Shown in pieces: positions 15,490 to 63,110 of a stretch of DNA of 64,000 bases. The stretch is from Cyanidioschyzon merolae. Lineage: Eukaryota. The stretch is taken from NCBI GenBank assembly GCA_000091205.1, contig AP006499.2. The stretch is one strand, 5' to 3'. The notes below the pieces were generated by a model. That model saw only the letters and a list, made by a program, of their open reading frames with translations. It searched no databases and was not told the DNA's origin. The first letter of the stretch is position 1. Each line of letters starts with the position of its first letter. The position numbers and the translations under genes are program-made.

Positions 15490-16048
15490 TTGGTTCTGAA
15501 ACCCCCGCGATACAGCCGCGAAAAAAGCGCCCTAGTTCATTCACGGCCAACTTGCACAGAAATCGCAATAACGGAATTCCTGGAACGTCGCGATCGATAT
15601 GGAGCACATCTACGTCGGTTTGATTTTTCAGTCGATGAGACTGCCTTCGGAAGAAGCTGTCGGAGCGGTTATGTGTATTTTCGGAGCGGAGCGCCTGTTG
15701 TATGTACGATCGAACTCGAAGAGAATGACGACATCATCATTTGTTCTAGCCGCCGTGGATTCATTAGGCGGCCTCAGTTTCGCTCGTAGAGAAGGCTCGT
15801 CCAACAGCGACCACCGCCTGGAGTCATTGAAAGCATTTCCCCTGACGTCTGGCGAAATACTTCTACTGGACCACGTTGCATTCAACTATCCCCAATGCGT
15901 CCGAGCCTTTGGTAAATCTATCGAAGTACAGCTGCTTTTCGTTCCCTCTTTCTCTCCGGGGTTCAACACCATCGAAGGGGAGATTTCAATCGTGAAACGT
16001 AATAATCGCTCCACTGGACGAATCGGTGGAGCCTTCAGCACACGGTGA
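15490..16048 (+). pseudogene. Tc1/mariner (IS630-Tc1-mariner, DDE_3) transposase relic, frameshifted.
   Basis: Two overlapping ORFs in different frames. The first carries the first-Asp region 'FDFSVDETAFGR'. The second carries 'ILLLDHVAFNYPQ' (the DNA-x-H block) and 'FVPSFSPGFNTIEGEISIVKR' (the LPPYSPDLNPIE...W..K block). Homologous peptide fragments recur at 17.1, 30.2, 45.6 and 47.3 kb. Confidence 0.7.
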
Positions 16049-18456: not shown

Positions 18457-19302
18457 TCAGGGTGTCTTGGATACGTTTGGGTGTGACTCCTTTGCGGGTA
18501 ATGCCATGGGTGTCTTCCTGCGCAAAAGTCTCGAGAAATGCGCTGTACCACCTAGTCGTCCCACTGCAGCAGCTAGCGTCGATGCACCAAAGCGCTTCAT
18601 GGTTCTGTATGTTGGCGCTCGATCCGGTGGAAGGCGATGTGCGGCGATGAATGTTTTTAGCTCGACAAGGGTACGCCTCTTGTCATTCCAGTATCCATTG
18701 GGTCTCCGATGAGCTTTCAGTCCGAGTTGCTCAGCTACCTTGGGAAATCCCCCGTGTTTGCGGATCGCACGGATGAGATCTGAGCGATGATGAGCCGCCA
18801 GCTGCCCAGCTGTAGGCATCGTGTCCTTTGCCTCGAGATGTTCGGCGATGAAGCTTTGTAGTTCCTTGGCGAGATTATCAAAGTCTTTCCAGTAGTTGTG
18901 TGGCATCATGCGTCCACGCCGCAGATCGACCGCAAAAGTCACATATAAACTTCTTGGTTGAGAGACGCACGCAGGTTTCAGGTTCAGCTTCGCTGCTACG
19001 GCCTGCCAACCGCCGTGCAGTCGAATAGGGTAAAGTAGATCTGGTCGGGGAAAGCTTGCGGATATAAACTGTTGCTCGCTAGGTAGCTGGTTCAAATTAT
19101 CCCAACCGTTCAGGCGAAGAAACTCGCGGACTTCTTTCTCGAGGTTTGCAGCATCTTTCCAGTAACCCCGTGGTTTCCGTTTCCTCGTACCAGTCTCATT
19201 CTGCTCCCGTTGACTTTGAGGCGGTGTCAGTTCGCACTTGACCCCACACTTCAAGCGAGACGAAATCCTTGTGTGCGAGAGGTTCACGCTTGCTAACCAC
19301 AT
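18457..19302 (-). CDS. Unrecognised tandem-repeat protein with three ~70-aa repeats. Paralog of 61803-63110.
   Basis: The repeats are 'RKPRGYWKDAANLEKEVREFL...', 'PHNYWKDFDNLAKELQSFIAEHL...MPTAGQLAAHHRSDLIRAIRKHGGFPKVAEQLGLK' and 'RPNGYWNDKRRTLVELKTFIAAH...'. Consensus: P-x-GYW-x-D...N-L...E-L...F-I...LP(T/S)...L...R-x-DL-x-x-A-I-x-x-HGG...A...LGL. The same repeat architecture appears in ORF 61803-63110. Confidence 0.6.
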   Translation of the reverse strand: MWLASVNLSHTRISSRLKCGVKCELTPPQSQREQNETGTRKRKPRGYWKDAANLEKEVREFLRLNGWDNLNQLPSEQQFISASFPRPDLLYPIRLHGGWQAVAAKLNLKPACVSQPRSLYVTFAVDLRRGRMMPHNYWKDFDNLAKELQSFIAEHLEAKDTMPTAGQLAAHHRSDLIRAIRKHGGFPKVAEQLGLKAHRRPNGYWNDKRRTLVELKTFIAAHRLPPDRAPTYRTMKRFGASTLAAAVGRLGGTAHFSRLLRRKTPMALPAKESHPNVSKTP

Positions 19303-57999: not shown

Positions 58000-60900
58000 T
58001 TAAGCCTCGGCCTCAGGATACTGCGCGGCAAGAATAGACACCAGTTGCTGTGCGGCCGAGAGAGCCAGAGCGAAATCCGATTGAGCTTGTACGGAGATGC
58101 TCCGGCTGGTGAAGCGCTGTATCGCTGAACACTGAGCCCGAATTGCTTGCTCATGTTTCCGCAACGAGTTCACCGGGATCTTGCATAGACACTGCAGCAC
58201 ACGCGTAATCGTCGCCCAGGTGATGCCGCGGACCAGTTGAAGTGGCTCATGCTCGCGGGCAGTTCCCGGGGATTCTCTCCGACGGGCGTTTGTGCGAAGC
58301 GGCTGAGGAAGCAAGCGCGACATCGTAGCCCAGATCTTATCAGTGCGACTGCTTGCGAACCACGGCACGAGAATGAACGCGAGCTCGATCACATCACATG
58401 CAGCTATGCGCACATCCGCACGAGTTTGGAGCATGCAGCGCGGCACGTGATCGAGAACCCTGGCTACCATGGGCAGGAGCAACCTCTGGTTCGACGCGAG
58501 GCTCTCTAACAAGCCGTGCAGGAGCTGCAAGGCGGCGCGGCGGAGCTCTGGGCTCTGCCTCTCAGTGGCAGCGAGTGCAGCGCTCCCGACACTTTCGACG
58601 ACCTGTGCGAGACGGAGCAACGAGGGATCCTCTTCGACGTCATCTGCATCGGCGCGGTGCTCGCTGTCGCTCCGCAAGCATGGGTGTCGACCGAGCACTG
58701 CGCAAACCGTGTCCAGCAGTTCCAGGTTACGCAATGCACGCTCCTCAGACAGAAACGCGATGCCGCGACCGATATCCACCAGCTCATCCGAGACAAGTAC
58801 GAGAGACTCTGGCCCCGCGATCGAAAAGAAAAACCGTCTCGCCGATTCAGTTGATACAACTCGAATGAGGAAACTCAACTGCGCCCGAACCAGAGACTCG
58901 ACGCTGGCGAAGCCGGCGGCAGTTGCAAGAACCTGCAACGTTTGTGATGCCGCCGTCGCCAGGGCATTCGTGTCAGCAGCACTGCCGGAACCAGGTTCGA
59001 GTTCAGAATCTGCGGCAAGCGACGCATTCCGAGGGATCTTATCTTCTACAGGGGCAGTCATTTGGCTAGCTGAGGTTGCAACGGGCAAACTGACTGAGGC
59101 TACAAAAGCCATATACTTGTGCAAACAGCGACGCCGGAAATCCACAACGTCTCGCGCTGCCCAAGCAGCATATACCCGTATGCCCCGAAGGATCTGGATG
59201 AGAGTCGCGGGATCGTGTCGAGATTCCTCGCCGATTTCCAGATAGACAGAGAGAAGGTCGTCGCCATTCGATCGATTGGACACAGCCTGGCTTGCGTCCG
59301 GATGCTCTCGGGAAAGCGACCCCTGTAATAGGTTGTTAGCGAACGACAGCAGACTTTGTAAATGCTGGGCTTGGGCATCGCTTTTCCGACTATCAAGACG
59401 GCCGAGCATAGGGTCCAGAAGCGGGTCCATGGCTCCCGCATAGCCCAGCAACTGAACCAGATCACAGCGTTCCCCAGGGAAGAGGCGAGCGTTTGGCGGA
59501 GCGCCCTCGCTAGCGGCTTCCAGGATCCAAACCCCTGGGCTAGCAGGGCCCGCACGTGCATCACTGTCATGAATAGCTAGCAGAAGATCGAGGATATTCC
59601 TGCGCTCGTAGAGATACTGAACAAGGCGCGGCAGCGCAGACGCTCTTTGACACTGTCCCAGGTACACGAGAAGGCCAGCAGCGCACCTCATTCGCCTGCG
59701 ATGCCAAGGACGCTCCGGGTCGTCGGAGAATTCCCCCAAATCCTCGCCGATCCCGTCTAGCGCTCTTTCCGCTAATACGCTATCATAGAGCGCTTCGATA
59801 AATCGCAGTGCACGGGCAGCGAGCACAGCAACCTGGTGATGTTCGCTCGTGAGATATAGCGCCAGGTTTGCAAACAGCATTGGCACGTCATCTGCAAACG
59901 CATCCTGCATCCGAATGGATTCGAGCACTACAGTGCAAAGATACACACCAGCCGCCTGCACCAACGCCGACGGATGATGGTGCAGGGAGAACGCATTGCA
60001 GTTTTCGACGAGAATCCGATTGAGAAGCGCTTGCAATTTTGGAGCTACAGCGTGAATCCAGTGCTTTGTGTCCGCTTTGGAAGGCACCGGGGAAGCGTGC
60101 TCGGGAGAGACGATGCCCACTGCGGACTTGGTTTGTTGCCAGTTGCATCCGCTGGTGACTGACGCTGGCGCCGTCATCGATCCAGTTACCTCTGTTCCTA
60201 GAGAAGGTTCCAGTGCACGTGCGAACAGGGTCCCAAAGCATGTAGCAGCCTCTGCAATAACCAGCGCTCTTGTTTGGGCATCGCCTGCAATGACCGAGCA
60301 CAAACCCGAACTGATACCAGGTAAGCATTGGCGCAACTCGTCTTGAGGCAAGAATGCAATAAATCTGTGCAAGAGGCGAATGGCGCTGCTTCGCTGCTGC
60401 CATTGTGCTCTGGAACGAGACAGCTCCAAAAGGAACAAGAGAATACAAGAGATGGCACCGCGGCCTGCACGCTTCAAAGCCTCGGATAGAACTGCACACG
60501 GAAAACAATGTCTGCAGCCGGCCGTGAGCCTGCGCTGCGCACGAGGACCACCCTTGAGGCACGTCGCTTCCTTGAAAGCAGCATTCGCCTCCGCCGCTTC
60601 TCGTATAACTGGGCAGGCATTCTGCTTCGGCTCTAGTTTGCGTTGATTGTCGTGAGCAACGGCCCAGAGGCGGTCTACATGGCTGCTCTGTCCATTGGAA
60701 TCAGAGGCATGTTGCATCGAGTCATTGTTGGGAGGAGATGGATTCCGCGTTCGAACTACAGTATCCGGTATGAGCACGCCTCCCGCATTATCATGCTGCT
60801 CTGGCAGGTCCAGCTGCGCCAGACGCTTTGGTTCACCGGAAGCATCCCCTACATGAGAGTGAATCTGGCTTGCAAGCGGGCTGCTCAAATCGTCATCGAG

Positions 60901-61650
60901 CGCAAAGTTTTCATGATCGAGCCTGCCTGTTTCGAGCGTCACCTTCCTGGATGATAAGCTCTTCAGATTCTCATTGAATGTCGAGCTTCCATTGCCGAAC
61001 ATGCCTGACTCGAGCGACAGTTCCTGGGTTGACGGCTCGCGAGCCACGGGCGCTTCGATCCCGCGCGTTTGGTCAGTCCGAGCGCGAGCCCAGCTGGCTA
61101 CACAACGGAGTGCAACCTGCGCGGGCTCTGTGAAAACTTGCGAACAAGTGCCCGTTGTGTGCTTCCATACCTGAGGCGAAGACCCGGAAACCATATTAAG
61201 AGGAAGACTCTCGAAACGTCGCCAAAGTGCTGCCTCCAGCTGTGGAACGGAAGCGTCAACAACTTGCTCATCCAGAGGCGCGCTCTGAACCGAAAACGCT
61301 GTGCTCAAAGTTCGGATCAGCGTGTCGGCTAGGGCCGTTCTGGAGTCAACAAGTCGCTCTAGTACAACAGCAACGGAAAAGAAGAGTGCCGAGAGCACAG
61401 AAACACAGACTTCTGTGCTCCGCCCTAGGCACTGCGAATCAATTTGAACCCTCTGCAGCACCTCTGTGGTGTGCACAAGACTTTCGCGGACATCCGAAAA
61501 TGAAGTTTGCGACCGAACTCGCTGTAAATGAGAAGCCAGCTCGAGAAGCGTTCGGATGAACGCTGCGTTTCCAGGTTGCTCCGTAGAAAGCAGCAGCCGT
61601 GCTTTTTGCCGACAATTTGCTGGTTTCCGAGCACGTTCGTCTTGGTTCAT
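58000..61650 (-). CDS. Large alpha-helical repeat (HEAT/ARM-like) protein, 1216 aa. Function unknown; possibly a TTI1-like scaffold.
   Basis: Single uninterrupted 3.65-kb ORF, Leu/Ala-rich with periodic amphipathic helices throughout. No catalytic motif. Confidence 0.5.
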   Translation of the reverse strand: MNQDERARKPANCRQKARLLLSTEQPGNAAFIRTLLELASHLQRVRSQTSFSDVRESLVHTTEVLQRVQIDSQCLGRSTEVCVSVLSALFFSVAVVLERLVDSRTALADTLIRTLSTAFSVQSAPLDEQVVDASVPQLEAALWRRFESLPLNMVSGSSPQVWKHTTGTCSQVFTEPAQVALRCVASWARARTDQTRGIEAPVAREPSTQELSLESGMFGNGSSTFNENLKSLSSRKVTLETGRLDHENFALDDDLSSPLASQIHSHVGDASGEPKRLAQLDLPEQHDNAGGVLIPDTVVRTRNPSPPNNDSMQHASDSNGQSSHVDRLWAVAHDNQRKLEPKQNACPVIREAAEANAAFKEATCLKGGPRAQRRLTAGCRHCFPCAVLSEALKRAGRGAISCILLFLLELSRSRAQWQQRSSAIRLLHRFIAFLPQDELRQCLPGISSGLCSVIAGDAQTRALVIAEAATCFGTLFARALEPSLGTEVTGSMTAPASVTSGCNWQQTKSAVGIVSPEHASPVPSKADTKHWIHAVAPKLQALLNRILVENCNAFSLHHHPSALVQAAGVYLCTVVLESIRMQDAFADDVPMLFANLALYLTSEHHQVAVLAARALRFIEALYDSVLAERALDGIGEDLGEFSDDPERPWHRRRMRCAAGLLVYLGQCQRASALPRLVQYLYERRNILDLLLAIHDSDARAGPASPGVWILEAASEGAPPNARLFPGERCDLVQLLGYAGAMDPLLDPMLGRLDSRKSDAQAQHLQSLLSFANNLLQGSLSREHPDASQAVSNRSNGDDLLSVYLEIGEESRHDPATLIQILRGIRVYAAWAARDVVDFRRRCLHKYMAFVASVSLPVATSASQMTAPVEDKIPRNASLAADSELEPGSGSAADTNALATAASQTLQVLATAAGFASVESLVRAQLSFLIRVVSTESARRFFFSIAGPESLVLVSDELVDIGRGIAFLSEERALRNLELLDTVCAVLGRHPCLRSDSEHRADADDVEEDPSLLRLAQVVESVGSAALAATERQSPELRRAALQLLHGLLESLASNQRLLLPMVARVLDHVPRCMLQTRADVRIAACDVIELAFILVPWFASSRTDKIWATMSRLLPQPLRTNARRRESPGTAREHEPLQLVRGITWATITRVLQCLCKIPVNSLRKHEQAIRAQCSAIQRFTSRSISVQAQSDFALALSAAQQLVSILAAQYPEAEA

Positions 61651-61775: not shown

Positions 61776-61800
61776 CTGCTGCTGCTGCTGCTGCTGCTGC
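61776..61800 (+). repeat. (CTG/GCT)n microsatellite, about 8 units.
   Basis: Read directly: 'cactgctgctgctgctgctgctgctgcg'. It lies in the promoter/5' region between two divergent genes. Confidence 0.9.
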
Positions 61801-61802
61801 GA

Positions 61803-63110
61803 TTGCATCCCTCGACTGTGCCGGAAGCCTGCCGCCAAACTCGTACCGGCAGTGATGGTACGCTGTCGTGCGCTTCGGGCAGGATCGACCGCTCTATGAG
61901 CGCTTTCTTGATCCTTTTTTTGAAGCAGCACGATCCAAATAAGAAAGCTGATGATGCACCGCATCGAGCGCGACAGAAAAGCGGTTACTGGAAGGACCTT
62001 GTCCTGGTAGCACAGCAAATTAGGTTGTTTCAGTCAAGGTTCGGGCTCCCGAACGATCGTCTTCCAACTGAATATGAGCTCCGAAGGCACGGATATAACG
62101 GAGGTCATACGATTCTCCGAGCACTTCGATTGCACGGTGGTAAACGGGCGTTTCTGCAGAAACTTGCGCGTTTAGACGATCCAGAGGCAAAGGCGCCGTT
62201 CGCCTCCTGGCAGGAGGCGAGTCCGCAGCGAAAAGTTTCAGATGCTCGTCGGGTCGCTCGGTCTCTGAAACCAGAGTTGGAAGGACTTGCTCGGAAGCTC
62301 GGGTTACCTGGAAAGACCCTTCCGAACTTGTCTTTGATCCGTGAATACGAGCCGCTTCTGGCCAACGTCATTTGCAGTACGCCGGGCGGCTATGCCGCTA
62401 TTGCTCGCGAACTGAACTGTTGCATTGAGCAGCAAAAGCCGGTCAGCTGGGCGAGCATGCGTAGATTAAAGCCTCTGCCTCTCCAAGAGCTGAAACGGGA
62501 GCTCTTGAAATTCATCGCGGAGCGAACGGTCACGCCGGGCGTGATGCCCCCGGAGCGTATCCTGGCAAAGGCTGGACGCTTCGACTTGATTATTTCCATA
62601 GAGTACCACGGCGGCAGTCGAGCAGTGGCTGAAATATGCGAGCTTCGTGACTCTGCCAGCTGGGAATACGTGCTGGAAATGCGTGATCTGTTGCGAGAAT
62701 TGCGTGCCTATTTGAACCTTGCCAATAAGGGCAACGAAATGCCGAGCATCGCTGAACTCCAGCGACAAGGCCGTGAGGATCTCGCACGACTCATTCGACG
62801 ACACGGGGGTCCGCTCGTGTTTGCAGCGAGGTTCGGGCTGTATGTGCCTCCTTCTCGCAGAAGGCGAGAGGCGGATCTGAAATGGGGCCCGTTCTCCCTG
62901 GCGCTTGCCGTCCGGCTCCTGGATGCCTGTTACCAGCGGGGCAGAGCAGTCGATGGAATCCCTGAACTCCCGCCTCTATCCGAGTTGGATCTTGAGCTGC
63001 AGACCGAGATTGCCGAGTACGGAGGACCAGATACGGTTGCCCGTCGCCTCGGATTGGCGTTTGCACGTCCAGACGGAGCGTCTGGCACCTTGCGTGAGGA
63101 TCACTGCTGA
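61803..63110 (+). CDS. Unrecognised tandem-repeat protein, paralog of 18457-19302, with at least four ~70-aa repeats (435 aa).
   Basis: Repeats such as 'RQKSGYWKDLVLVAQQIRLFQSRFGLPNDRLPTEYELRRHGYNGGHTILRALRLHGGKRAFLQKLARL', '...MPSIAELQRQGREDLARLIRRHGGPLVFAARFGLY' and '...ELPPLSELDLELQTEIAEYGGPDTVARRLGLAF' share the GYW / LP(T/S).EL / R.DL..AI..HGG / LGL signature with the 18.5-19.3 kb gene. Confidence 0.6.
   Translation: MHPSTVPEACRQTRTGSDGTLSCASGRIDRSMSAFLILFLKQHDPNKKADDAPHRARQKSGYWKDLVLVAQQIRLFQSRFGLPNDRLPTEYELRRHGYNGGHTILRALRLHGGKRAFLQKLARLDDPEAKAPFASWQEASPQRKVSDARRVARSLKPELEGLARKLGLPGKTLPNLSLIREYEPLLANVICSTPGGYAAIARELNCCIEQQKPVSWASMRRLKPLPLQELKRELLKFIAERTVTPGVMPPERILAKAGRFDLIISIEYHGGSRAVAEICELRDSASWEYVLEMRDLLRELRAYLNLANKGNEMPSIAELQRQGREDLARLIRRHGGPLVFAARFGLYVPPSRRRREADLKWGPFSLALAVRLLDACYQRGRAVDGIPELPPLSELDLELQTEIAEYGGPDTVARRLGLAFARPDGASGTLREDHC

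What the first reader, a model, noticed from the sequence alone, without database searches (positions are those of the whole stretch)
18457..19302. Unrecognised ~70-aa tandem-repeat protein family (GYW...HGG...LGL), two paralogs in the window
ORFs 18457-19302 (-) and 61803-63110 (+) both consist of 3-4 tandem ~70-residue repeats with a shared signature: P-x-GYW-x-(D/N)...N-L...E-L...F-I...LP(T/S).(G/E)-(Q/E)-L...R-x-DL-x-R/A-A/L-I-R-x-HGG...A..LGL. I do not recognise it as PPR/OPR/HPR/mTERF/SAP or any other named repeat. The helix-rich, basic composition suggests a nucleic-acid-binding solenoid, perhaps organellar given the algal context.
Basis: seen in the sequence. Interest (0 to 1): 0.55.

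Follow-up and report, generated by a model that had tools for sequence, protein, structure and literature searches.

The report
Red-algal tandem helix-turn-helix repeat proteins
Two unannotated genes of the red alga Cyanidioschyzon merolae encode basic proteins made only of tandem ~65-residue four-helix repeats; the repeat is a divergent form of a known but unstudied one that bacteria and archaea attach to DNA-cutting and DNA-remodelling enzymes, and the algal proteins probably bind DNA in the plastid.

Summary
ORF 18457-19302(-) encodes 281 aa with three ~65-residue repeats. The second gene starts at ATG 61896, not TTG 61803. It encodes 404 aa with five repeats, three strong and two degenerate. 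Both are identical to Cyanidioschyzon merolae 10D "hypothetical proteins" (BAM82056.1; CMQ170C).

The repeat is not an unknown family. A single-repeat profile finds 4,269 protein clusters. Of 63 top hits that carry an extra non-repeat domain, 25 match Pfam PF18780 (HNH_repeat, "homing endonuclease associated repeat"), and the six matches whose coordinates I checked lie in register with the repeat. A profile built only from red-algal repeats aligns to repeats of PF18780-positive proteins at 99.4% probability. W1 and W2 themselves get no PF18780 match.

In prokaryotes the arrays stand alone or are fused to Mrr or DUF559 nucleases, SNF2/ResIII helicases and methyltransferases. AlphaFold gives a confident four-helix unit with only weak resemblance to helix-turn-helix domains and no close solved structure. 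The algal proteins have no catalytic domain and are strongly basic. All of them carry a short, poorly conserved N-terminal extension that four prokaryotic stand-alone arrays lack. An aromatic residue near its start fits red-algal plastid transit peptides.

Best reading: nucleus-encoded, probably plastid-targeted DNA-binding repeat proteins. This is a new member of a known kind, of moderate interest.

The parts
18457..19302 (-). W1 gene, 281 aa plus stop; identical to C. merolae 10D BAM82056.1 / XP_005538092.1 / UniProt M1UVL6, 'hypothetical protein, conserved'
19174..19302 (-). W1 N-terminal extension, aa 1-43 (MWLASVNLSH...). AlphaFold predicts disorder for aa 1-37. It has 10 K/R against 3 D/E and is poorly conserved. 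It is a candidate plastid transit peptide.
   Evidence: F-based (aromatic) N-terminal targeting motif described in PMC7038456. The targeting role is inference.
18958..19173 (-). W1 repeat 1 (aa 44-115)
   Evidence: pLDDT about 90-96
18904..18957 (-). W1 linker (aa 116-133) with the motif PRSLYVTF. The motif is conserved in the W1-type orthologues found here and is absent from every other family protein fetched. AlphaFold confidence is low.
18697..18903 (-). W1 repeat 2 (aa 134-202), the best-conserved unit. Single-repeat AlphaFold model pLDDT 90.4, with helices at 8-22, 32-37, 41-49 and 53-60.
18499..18702 (-). W1 repeat 3 (aa 201-268)
61896..63110 (+). W2 gene, 404 aa plus stop; identical to CYME_CMQ170C. 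The true start is the ATG at 61896, not the TTG at 61803.
61896..61976 (+). W2 N-terminal extension, aa 1-27 (MSAFLILF...). Orthologues begin MSAFVL, MSAFIL and MFVLAPV.
   Evidence: The targeting role is inference.
61977..62192 (+). W2 repeat 1 (aa 28-99)
   Evidence: i-E 2e-16
62253..62441 (+). W2 repeat 2 (aa 120-182), degenerate. It has lost GYW but keeps EL...G..LP...LL..VI...GG...IA.EL.
   Evidence: i-E 4e-4; sequence inspection
62478..62666 (+). W2 repeat 3 (aa 195-257)
   Evidence: i-E 1e-18
62658..62861 (+). W2 repeat 4 (aa 255-322)
   Evidence: i-E 2e-20
62967..63071 (+). W2 repeat 5 (aa 358-392). Only the C-terminal half is scored (...IAEYGGPDTVARRLGL). The N-terminal half (from about aa 335) is degenerate.
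   Evidence: i-E 1e-3; sequence inspection

Best explanation
W1 (BAM82056.1) and W2 (CMQ170C) are nucleus-encoded, catalytically inert DNA-binding proteins of Cyanidioschyzon merolae. Each is a short N-terminal targeting peptide followed by three (W1) or five (W2) tandem ~65-residue four-helix units of the PF18780 'homing-endonuclease-associated repeat' type.

In bacteria and archaea the same arrays stand alone or are attached to nucleases, SNF2/ResIII helicases and methyltransferases. I infer that they serve there as the DNA-recognition or DNA-tethering module.

The red-algal lineage kept only the array and added an N-terminal extension that fits the aromatic-residue plastid transit motif of rhodophytes. 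The most likely job is therefore binding plastid DNA, either as a nucleoid-architectural factor or as a site-specific factor. Helices 2-4 of each unit (PTxxxL - GRxDLxxAI - HGG - xxxVAxxLGL) would act as a helix-turn-helix or helix-hairpin-helix-like DNA contact. Successive units would read or clamp successive stretches of the duplex.

Shown: the repeat anatomy, family membership, fold, basic charge, lack of a catalytic domain, conservation across red algae, and prokaryotic domain partners. Inferred: DNA as the ligand, plastid location, and binding mode.
For: Repeats and paralogy.

Family:
- The exhaustive single-repeat profile search gives 4,269 clusters at E<=1e-3, with arrays of up to 13 units.
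- 25 of 63 multidomain hits match PF18780, best E 6e-35.
- The matches are collinear with the units.
- The red-algal-only profile aligns to PF18780-positive repeats at hhalign 99.4%, E 7e-22.

DNA-enzyme partners (counts):
- P0074 = Mrr_cat + ResIII + Helicase_C + 7 repeats.
- P0102 = 6 repeats + DUF559.
- P0064 = 7 repeats + SNF2 + methyltransferase.
- P0024 = 13 repeats + SNF2.
- A Melainabacteria protein has 5 repeats followed by ~860 further residues that I read, by eye only, as helicase- and methyltransferase-like.

HTH character:
- Recurrent sub-threshold hits inside the units to YdaS/Cro, HTH_50, HTH_1, Sigma70_r4, ARID and HhH-GPD.

Fold: pLDDT 90 for one unit and >90 for all three units of W1.

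Charge: pI 10.6 and 9.7. All algal relatives have pI 9.2-10.6.

Real, constrained genes:
- Orthologues in Cyanidiococcus at 59% and 68% identity, with the W1 gene in conserved synteny.
- W1-type orthologues with the same architecture and linker motif in Hildenbrandia (Florideophyceae) and in two further sources, a Tara ocean metagenome (P0004) and P0005.

Targeting:
- Four prokaryotic stand-alone arrays begin directly at repeat 1: MKKPNNYW, MRKPNGYW, MPAKPPGYW twice.
- The red-algal members and two other eukaryote-looking members (P0142, P0154) have a 27-55-residue, poorly conserved extension; in the one protein modelled, W1, it is predicted disordered.
- Nearly all of these extensions carry an aromatic residue within the first few residues: MWLASV, MSAF[LVI]L, MFVLAPV, MPFLFIVSP, MVLNFATAPF..YVAFCHSFA, and MASFIVTP in P0154 if it starts at its internal Met15.
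- This fits the F-based (or other bulky aromatic) N-terminal plastid motif of rhodophytes (PMC7038456).
Against: - No experiment and no targeting predictor was available, so the transit-peptide reading rests on a motif judged by eye.
- W2's extension is short (27 aa) and contains three acidic residues.
- W1 has W rather than F at the start.
- Pfam PF18780 does not match W1 or W2 directly.
- Some partners, such as Methyltransf_8 and Methyltransf_11, are not specifically DNA enzymes.
- No cyanobacterial affinity of the algal proteins was seen. Identities to many prokaryotic phyla are all about 30-38%, so origin gives no support for a plastid role.
Confidence: 0.5

Rival explanations
1. Nuclear or cytosolic DNA-binding proteins, such as transcription or chromatin factors. 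The same repeat array binds nuclear DNA, and the N-terminal extension is just a disordered tail rather than a transit peptide.
For: Family, fold, charge and DNA-enzyme partners apply equally. W2's extension is short and partly acidic. The basic inter-repeat linkers (K/R-rich positions 65-68) could act as nuclear localisation signals.
Against: The N-terminal aromatic motif recurs in both paralogue lineages and in distant algal relatives, matching the rhodophyte plastid signal. The extension occurs in the eukaryotic members only, and its sequence is poorly conserved while its presence is conserved. That pattern is typical of targeting peptides.
Confidence: 0.2
2. Organellar RNA-binding helical-repeat factors. 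The arrays would bind plastid or mitochondrial transcripts in the manner of PPR, OPR or mTERF proteins.
Against: No match to any PPR, OPR, TPR or mTERF model. The period is 63-72 aa with four helices per globular unit, not 30-38 aa helical hairpins. Prokaryotic relatives are fused to restriction-type nucleases and SNF2/ResIII helicases, which act on DNA.
Confidence: 0.15
3. Decaying remnants of a horizontally acquired mobile element or homing endonuclease that lost its nuclease and now has no cellular function.
For: The family's prokaryotic members include nuclease fusions. A transposase-like fragment lies about 2.4 kb from W1.
Against: Both genes are intact ORFs with orthologues in Cyanidiococcus at 59-68% identity, the W1 gene in conserved synteny. 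The W1 type, with its specific linker motif, is shared with a florideophyte. That implies very long purifying selection. No other copies or fragments occur in the window.
Confidence: 0.03

Closest known systems
Pfam PF18780 HNH_repeat ('Homing endonuclease associated repeat')
   Same: Same tandem unit, same period (~62-66 aa) and same register. The signature matches: W near the start, EL..(F/I)I helix, G..(M/F)P(T/S), L, A(I/V), then (H/Y/F)GG...V(A/R)..(L/M)G. Homology is shown by profile-profile alignment at 99.4% and by PF18780 hits in the same proteins.
   Different: W1 and W2 get no PF18780 match even at E<=10. They are eukaryotic, lack any nuclease, helicase or methyltransferase partner, and carry an N-terminal extension. 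W1 also has a lineage-specific PRSLYVTF linker. The Pfam family has no characterised member, and I found only one paper that mentions it, as a repeat family without a structure.
Small helix-turn-helix / helix-hairpin-helix / SAP-like DNA-binding modules (Cro/YdaS-type HTH, winged-helix regulators, Slx4 CCD)
   Different: All matches are below the level that shows membership. The unit has an extra long N-terminal helix, a conserved GYW cap and an HGG turn. It occurs in long head-to-tail arrays.
PPR / OPR / mTERF organellar helical-repeat proteins
   Same: Nucleus-encoded, basic, helical, tandemly repeated, and probably organelle-targeted.
   Different: No sequence match. The period is about twice as long, with four helices per unit. 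No continuous superhelix is predicted. Relatives point to DNA rather than RNA.
[quoted passage not shown]
   Same: A nucleus-encoded plastid nucleoid DNA-binding protein of angiosperms (PMC7772139). A precomputed 'faint' PF25896 hit is on record for the prokaryotic family member P0003.
   Different: The hit was not reproduced by hmmscan at E<=10 and was never seen on W1 or W2. PEND also has a central repeat region and a C-terminal membrane anchor (PMC7845737), and W1/W2 show no such membrane-anchor region. This is an analogy and an untested lead, not a demonstrated relationship.

Membership tests
Pfam PF18780 HNH_repeat | Match to the Pfam HMM at or above the gathering score (26 bits) | tested here: not met
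   W1 and W2 return no PF18780 match even at E<=10. Red-algal orthologues reach only 13-21 bits. Only 4 of 48 single units match weakly. By contrast, prokaryotic relatives found with the repeat profile score 27-79 bits.
Pfam PF18780 HNH_repeat | Homology of the repeat unit to units of bona fide PF18780-positive proteins (profile-profile) | tested here: met
   A red-algal-only profile (34 units) was aligned with hhalign to 51 units from proteins scoring 43-79 bits on PF18780. Result: probability 99.4%, E 7e-22, 63 aligned columns. PF18780 matches are collinear with the units.
Pfam PF18780 HNH_repeat | Head-to-tail tandem arrays with a ~60-70 aa period | tested here: met
   W1 has 3 units and W2 has 5. 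Relatives have up to 13 units.
Pfam PF18780 HNH_repeat | Association with an endonuclease or other DNA-processing domain in the same protein (the basis of the family's name) | tested here: not met
   W1 and W2 consist of repeats plus short linkers only. Nuclease and helicase fusions exist in prokaryotic relatives, but nuclease-free stand-alone arrays are also common there.
PPR / OPR / TPR-like / mTERF alpha-solenoid repeats | 30-38 aa helical-hairpin (or three-helix) unit forming a continuous superhelix, with a match to the family HMMs | tested here: not met
   No Pfam or NCBIfam hit. The period is 63-72 aa with four helices per unit. The full-length model has pTM 0.43 with a disordered linker, so no continuous solenoid is predicted.
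Helix-turn-helix DNA-binding superfamily | Tri-helical core superimposable on known HTH domains; DNA contact by the recognition helix | tested here: inconclusive
PEND / PF25896 HTH_AT3G52170 | Match to PF25896, or homology to the At3g52170 DNA-binding domain | tested here: inconclusive
   Only a precomputed 'faint' hit on P0003 exists. hmmscan at E<=10 does not list it for P0003, W1, W2 or the orthologues. No At3g52170 sequence was obtainable for a profile-profile test.
Rhodophyte plastid-targeted proteins | N-terminal transit peptide with a phenylalanine or other bulky aromatic residue at the very N-terminus (PMC7038456) | tested here: inconclusive
   Aromatic residue at positions 2-8 in both paralogue lineages and nearly all algal relatives. 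The extension is absent from four prokaryotic stand-alone arrays and predicted disordered in W1. No predictor or localisation data were available.

The most novel reading that the evidence does not exclude
The GYW...HGG repeat arrays are modular DNA-reading devices, in which each four-helix unit contacts a fixed step of the duplex through its variable positions on helices 2-4. Red algae, and apparently other algae, captured a nuclease-free array from prokaryotic mobile or restriction systems. They sent it into the plastid as a nucleoid or gene-expression factor. That would be a rhodophyte counterpart of angiosperm PEND or of mTERF-type organellar DNA binders, and it may be anciently related to PEND's DNA-binding domain.
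Probability: 0.15. Interest if true: 0.7.

Novelty: new member of a known kind. Interest (0 to 1): 0.4.

Why it matters
The result assigns a family and a testable function to two "hypothetical, conserved" genes of a model red alga that can be genetically manipulated.

It also shows that the Pfam repeat PF18780 is much larger than its model detects. I found about 4,300 clusters at 50% identity across Bacteria and Archaea, and the family reaches into eukaryotic algae. The repeat is almost unstudied.

If the proteins do bind plastid DNA, they would be among the few nucleus-encoded plastid DNA-binding factors proposed for rhodophytes. HU is the plastid nucleoid protein of this alga named in the one review I consulted (PMC4758235). 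The prokaryotic arrays of up to 13 units, fused to nucleases and helicases, would also be worth examining as a possible modular DNA-recognition scaffold.

Tried and rejected
- **Direct family scans of W1/W2.** Pfam and NCBIfam gave nothing above cut-off. PHROGs gave nothing.
- **DUF7725.** Weak hits on W1 and its Cyanidiococcus orthologue only (E 0.011 and 0.002). They are absent from the other orthologues, so I treated them as chance.
- **NCBIfam 'carph-isopro'.** A hit on W2 of 24 bits against a cut-off of 38 covers only 16 residues of the last HGG/LGL turn. Not pursued.
- **PDB by sequence profile.** No hit at E<=10.
- **Foldseek with the full-length model.** Against PDB and viral BFVD, nothing at E<=0.001.
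- **afdb50.** The library was unavailable.
- **The search for homologous proteins with the repeat profile.** Only 8 short hits, because of the word index. It was superseded by the exhaustive search.
- **The search for related loci in GTDB genomes.** Two alignments were rejected as too variable. P0180 found no relative. I replaced this with a degenerate DNA motif scan.
- **Literature.** Nothing for 'homing endonuclease associated repeat' or CMQ170C. PF18780/HNH_repeat appears in one table only. No supplement was held for the C. merolae translation atlas.
- **PEND / PF25896 lead.** It could not be reproduced or properly tested.
- **Cyanobacterial (endosymbiotic) origin.** No signal. Cyanobacterial Myxacorys proteins carry the repeat, but they did not appear among the 40 best BLASTP matches of W1 or W2 in the pooled set.
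Full report
**Source and genes.** The window is nuclear DNA of the red alga Cyanidioschyzon merolae, chromosome 17 (locus tags CMQ...).
- The protein of ORF 18457-19302(-), called W1 here (281 aa), is identical to BAM82056.1 / XP_005538092.1 / UniProt M1UVL6, annotated "hypothetical protein, conserved".
- The second protein, W2, is identical over 404 aa to CYME_CMQ170C.
- W2's real start is therefore the ATG at 61896.
- Both genes have orthologues in Cyanidiococcus yangmingshanensis: CCYA03G1030 at 59% identity and CCYA03G1015 at 68%. The contig carrying the Cyanidiococcus-type W1 orthologue shows the same neighbouring genes, including the fumarylacetoacetase gene.
- These are real genes under constraint, not chance ORFs.

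**The repeat is real.**
- I built a profile only from prokaryote-like homologues (P0003, P0006, P0008, P0010), so W1 and W2 contributed nothing to it.
- It detects three units in W1 with independent E-values of 7e-12, 1e-24 and 1e-9. In W2 it detects three clear units plus two degenerate ones.
- With the larger 48-unit profile the unit boundaries are W1 aa 44-115, 134-202 and 201-268, and W2 aa 28-99, 120-182, 195-257, 255-322 and 358-392.
- The two degenerate W2 units have lost GYW but keep the EL...G..(L)P...L...(V/I)...GG...(I/V)A..L pattern.
- The consensus over 48 units and over 1,165 units is PxGYWxDxxNxxxELxxx(I)xxxxxxGx(M/F)P(T/S)xxxLxxxGRxDLxxAIxxHGGxxxV(A/R)xx(L/M)G(L/Y).
- W1 and W2 are paralogues (E 1e-11).
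- No third copy or fragment exists in the window.

**Which family it belongs to.**
- W1 and W2 get no significant hit in Pfam, NCBIfam or PHROGs.
- An exhaustive HMMER search with the single-repeat profile against 1.84 billion cluster representatives gave 4,269 proteins at E<=1e-3 and 972 at E<=1e-30. Arrays reach 13 units.
- I scanned 63 of the best hits that carry extra, non-repeat sequence. Of these, 25 match Pfam PF18780 HNH_repeat ("Homing endonuclease associated repeat"), with best E 6e-35.
- Further individual proteins, both pure arrays and multidomain ones, score 32-79 bits against a 26-bit cut-off.
- In the six proteins whose match coordinates I checked, the PF18780 match lies inside one of my repeat units and runs in the same direction.
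- To avoid circularity I built a profile from 34 red-algal units only. I aligned it with hhalign to 51 units taken from PF18780-positive prokaryotic proteins. The result was probability 99.4%, E 7e-22, over 63 of 69 columns.
- The red-algal repeat is therefore a divergent branch of the PF18780 family, with the same period. It remains true that Pfam's model misses these proteins.
- PF18780 is essentially uncharacterised. The only paper in the library that mentions it lists it among repeat families without a known structure. A profile search of PDB sequences finds nothing.

**Where else the repeat occurs and what it is attached to.**
- Source names among short hits include Woesearchaeota and Pacearchaeota.
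- A degenerate DNA scan of one genome per GTDB species for P-x-G-Y-W-K-D-F-x-N gave 15 loci. Ten of them encode genuine arrays.
- The ten come from Melainabacteria, Pirellulales (two loci), Chloroflexi and Anaerolineae, the cyanobacteria Myxacorys californica and M. chilensis, Pacearchaeota, Woesearchaeota and Bifidobacteriales.
- Many proteins are arrays and nothing else. Others carry enzymes that work on DNA (counts):
  - P0074: Mrr_cat nuclease + ResIII/Helicase_C + 7 repeats.
  - P0102: 6 repeats + DUF559 (Vsr-like endonuclease).
  - P0064: 7 repeats + SNF2 helicase + methyltransferase.
  - P0024: 13 repeats + SNF2.
- One cyanobacterial protein joins three units to an N-terminal region that looks, by eye, like a series of short helix-turn-helix modules.
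- I infer, but have not shown, that the array is a DNA-recognition or DNA-tethering module.

**Structure.**
- AlphaFold2 on W1, with a 13-sequence alignment, gives pLDDT above 90 for all three units. It predicts disorder for aa 1-37, the linker 114-127 and the C-terminal tail. pTM is 0.43, so the mutual arrangement of units is not defined.
- A single unit (W1 repeat 2, 48-sequence alignment) gives pLDDT 90.4 and pTM 0.73. It has four helices at 8-22, 32-37, 41-49 and 53-60.
- Foldseek with the full-length model finds nothing significant in PDB or in viral models.
- Inside the units, sub-threshold HMM hits recur to Cro/YdaS-type HTH, HTH_50, LysR HTH_1, sigma-70 region 4, ARID and HhH-GPD.
- The picture is a small helix-turn-helix-like or helix-hairpin-helix-like module with no close solved relative. 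No continuous PPR-like solenoid is predicted.
- Across 1,165 units the scaffold positions are nearly fixed: P1, G3, Y4, W5, N10, E14, L15, G26, P29, L34, G38, L42, A45, I46, H49, G50, G51, V55, L59, G60.
- The positions that vary most are 31-32, 35-37, 40, 43-44, 47 and 53, and by register I place them on helices 2-4. Basic residues concentrate at positions 39, 56-58 and in the inter-unit linker 65-68.

**What distinguishes the algal proteins.**
- They have no catalytic domain.
- They are strongly basic. W1 has pI 10.6 and W2 9.7; relatives range from 9.2 to 10.6.
- Four prokaryotic stand-alone arrays start directly at repeat 1: MKKPNNYW, MRKPNGYW, and MPAKPPGYW in two close relatives.
- Every red-algal member, and the other eukaryote-looking members P0142 and P0154, has a 27-55-residue N-terminal extension whose sequence is poorly conserved. 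In W1, the only one modelled, it is predicted disordered.
- Nearly all of these extensions carry an aromatic residue within the first few residues:
  - W1 and its Cyanidiococcus orthologue: MWLASV / MWLVNL.
  - CMQ170C and its orthologues: MSAF(L/V/I)L.
  - P0185: MFVLAPV.
  - P0005: MPFLFIVSP.
  - P0004: MVLNFATAPF.
  - Hildenbrandia: ...YVAFCHSFA.
  - P0154: MASFIVTP, if translation starts at its internal Met15.
  - P0142's first aromatic is Y at position 6.
- Plastid targeting is therefore my preferred reading. It rests on inspection only. W2's extension is short and partly acidic.
- The W1 lineage also has a conserved linker motif, PRS(L/V)(Y/F)(L/V)(T/S)(F/Y), between units 1 and 2. It is shared by Cyanidioschyzon, Cyanidiococcus, Hildenbrandia and two further proteins, P0004 (a Tara ocean metagenome) and P0005. 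P0142 has a near variant (PRSLNLIY). The motif is absent from every other family protein fetched here. Its role is unknown.
- Because Hildenbrandia is a florideophyte, I infer from red-algal phylogeny (my own knowledge, not tested here) that the W1 lineage predates the split of the main red-algal classes.
- P0143, a 607-aa protein from a compact contig that also carries a choline-transporter-like gene, suggests that the family also occurs in other algae.

**Mechanism and rivals.**
- Best explanation (confidence 0.5): nucleus-encoded, probably plastid-targeted DNA-binding proteins. The tandem units contact successive stretches of DNA through helices 2-4. The proteins act as nucleoid-architectural or site-specific factors.
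- Rival 1: the same proteins act in the nucleus (0.2).
- Rival 2: they are organellar RNA binders of the PPR/OPR kind (0.15). No HMM match, a different period and unit structure, and DNA-enzyme partners all argue against this.
- Rival 3: they are functionless remnants of a mobile element (0.03). Conservation across red algae argues against this.

**An untested lead.**
- The precomputed Pfam table lists a "faint" hit of PF25896 HTH_AT3G52170 on the prokaryotic member P0003.
- At3g52170 is PEND, the plastid envelope DNA-binding protein used as a nucleoid marker in angiosperms (PMC7772139; PMC6882211).
- I could not reproduce the hit at E<=10 on P0003, W1, W2 or their orthologues. I also could not obtain a PEND sequence for a profile comparison.
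- The link is therefore a lead and not a finding.

**Verdict.** The feature consists of two divergent, eukaryotic, nuclease-free members of a known but uncharacterised repeat family. Interest is moderate at 0.4. The family assignment is solid. The function is inferred and can be tested directly in a tractable organism.

Noticed in passing
window 17868 and downstream; loci L004 and L005: Two short public contigs (JGI 3300050365, Logan SRR29605751) are 99.7% identical to the window from 19579/19519 down to 17868. They then continue into an Arf-family GTPase gene that is not present anywhere in the window. This is either a structural variant in a related strain or a chimeric (possibly transcript-derived) assembly. 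The junction shares the bases GGTGA.
   Followed up: partly
window about 15599-16048 (+): An ORF of about 149 aa with a DDE_3 transposase (PF13358) hit on record lies about 2.4 kb from W1 (gene list of L001). It is possibly a transposon fragment. It is absent from the corresponding interval of the Cyanidiococcus-type contig L007, as far as the gene list shows.
   Followed up: no
window 61777-61800: A perfect (TGC)8 microsatellite sits about 95 bp upstream of the CMQ170C start codon. It lies in the 245-bp interval shared with the divergently transcribed 1,216-aa ORF at 58000-61650(-).
   Followed up: no
window 18904-18957 (W1 aa 116-133): The linker motif PRSLYVTF is conserved in the W1-type orthologues found here and absent from every other family protein fetched. 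AlphaFold gives it low confidence with hints of short strands. It may be a lineage-specific interaction or processing site.
   Followed up: partly
locus L008 (P0003) gene table: Precomputed faint Pfam hits on a prokaryotic array: PF25896 HTH_AT3G52170 (PEND), PF26683 Tyr_recomb_halo_N, PF14355 Abi_C and PF27111 Rv1352. This hints that several recent Pfam families may overlap with this repeat.
   Followed up: partly
loci L022 and L026 (Myxacorys cyanobacteria): Proteins of about 500 aa have an N-terminal region that looks, by eye, like a series of short helix-turn-helix modules, followed by three GYW...HGG units. This architecture was not seen among the top hits of the profile search.
   Followed up: no
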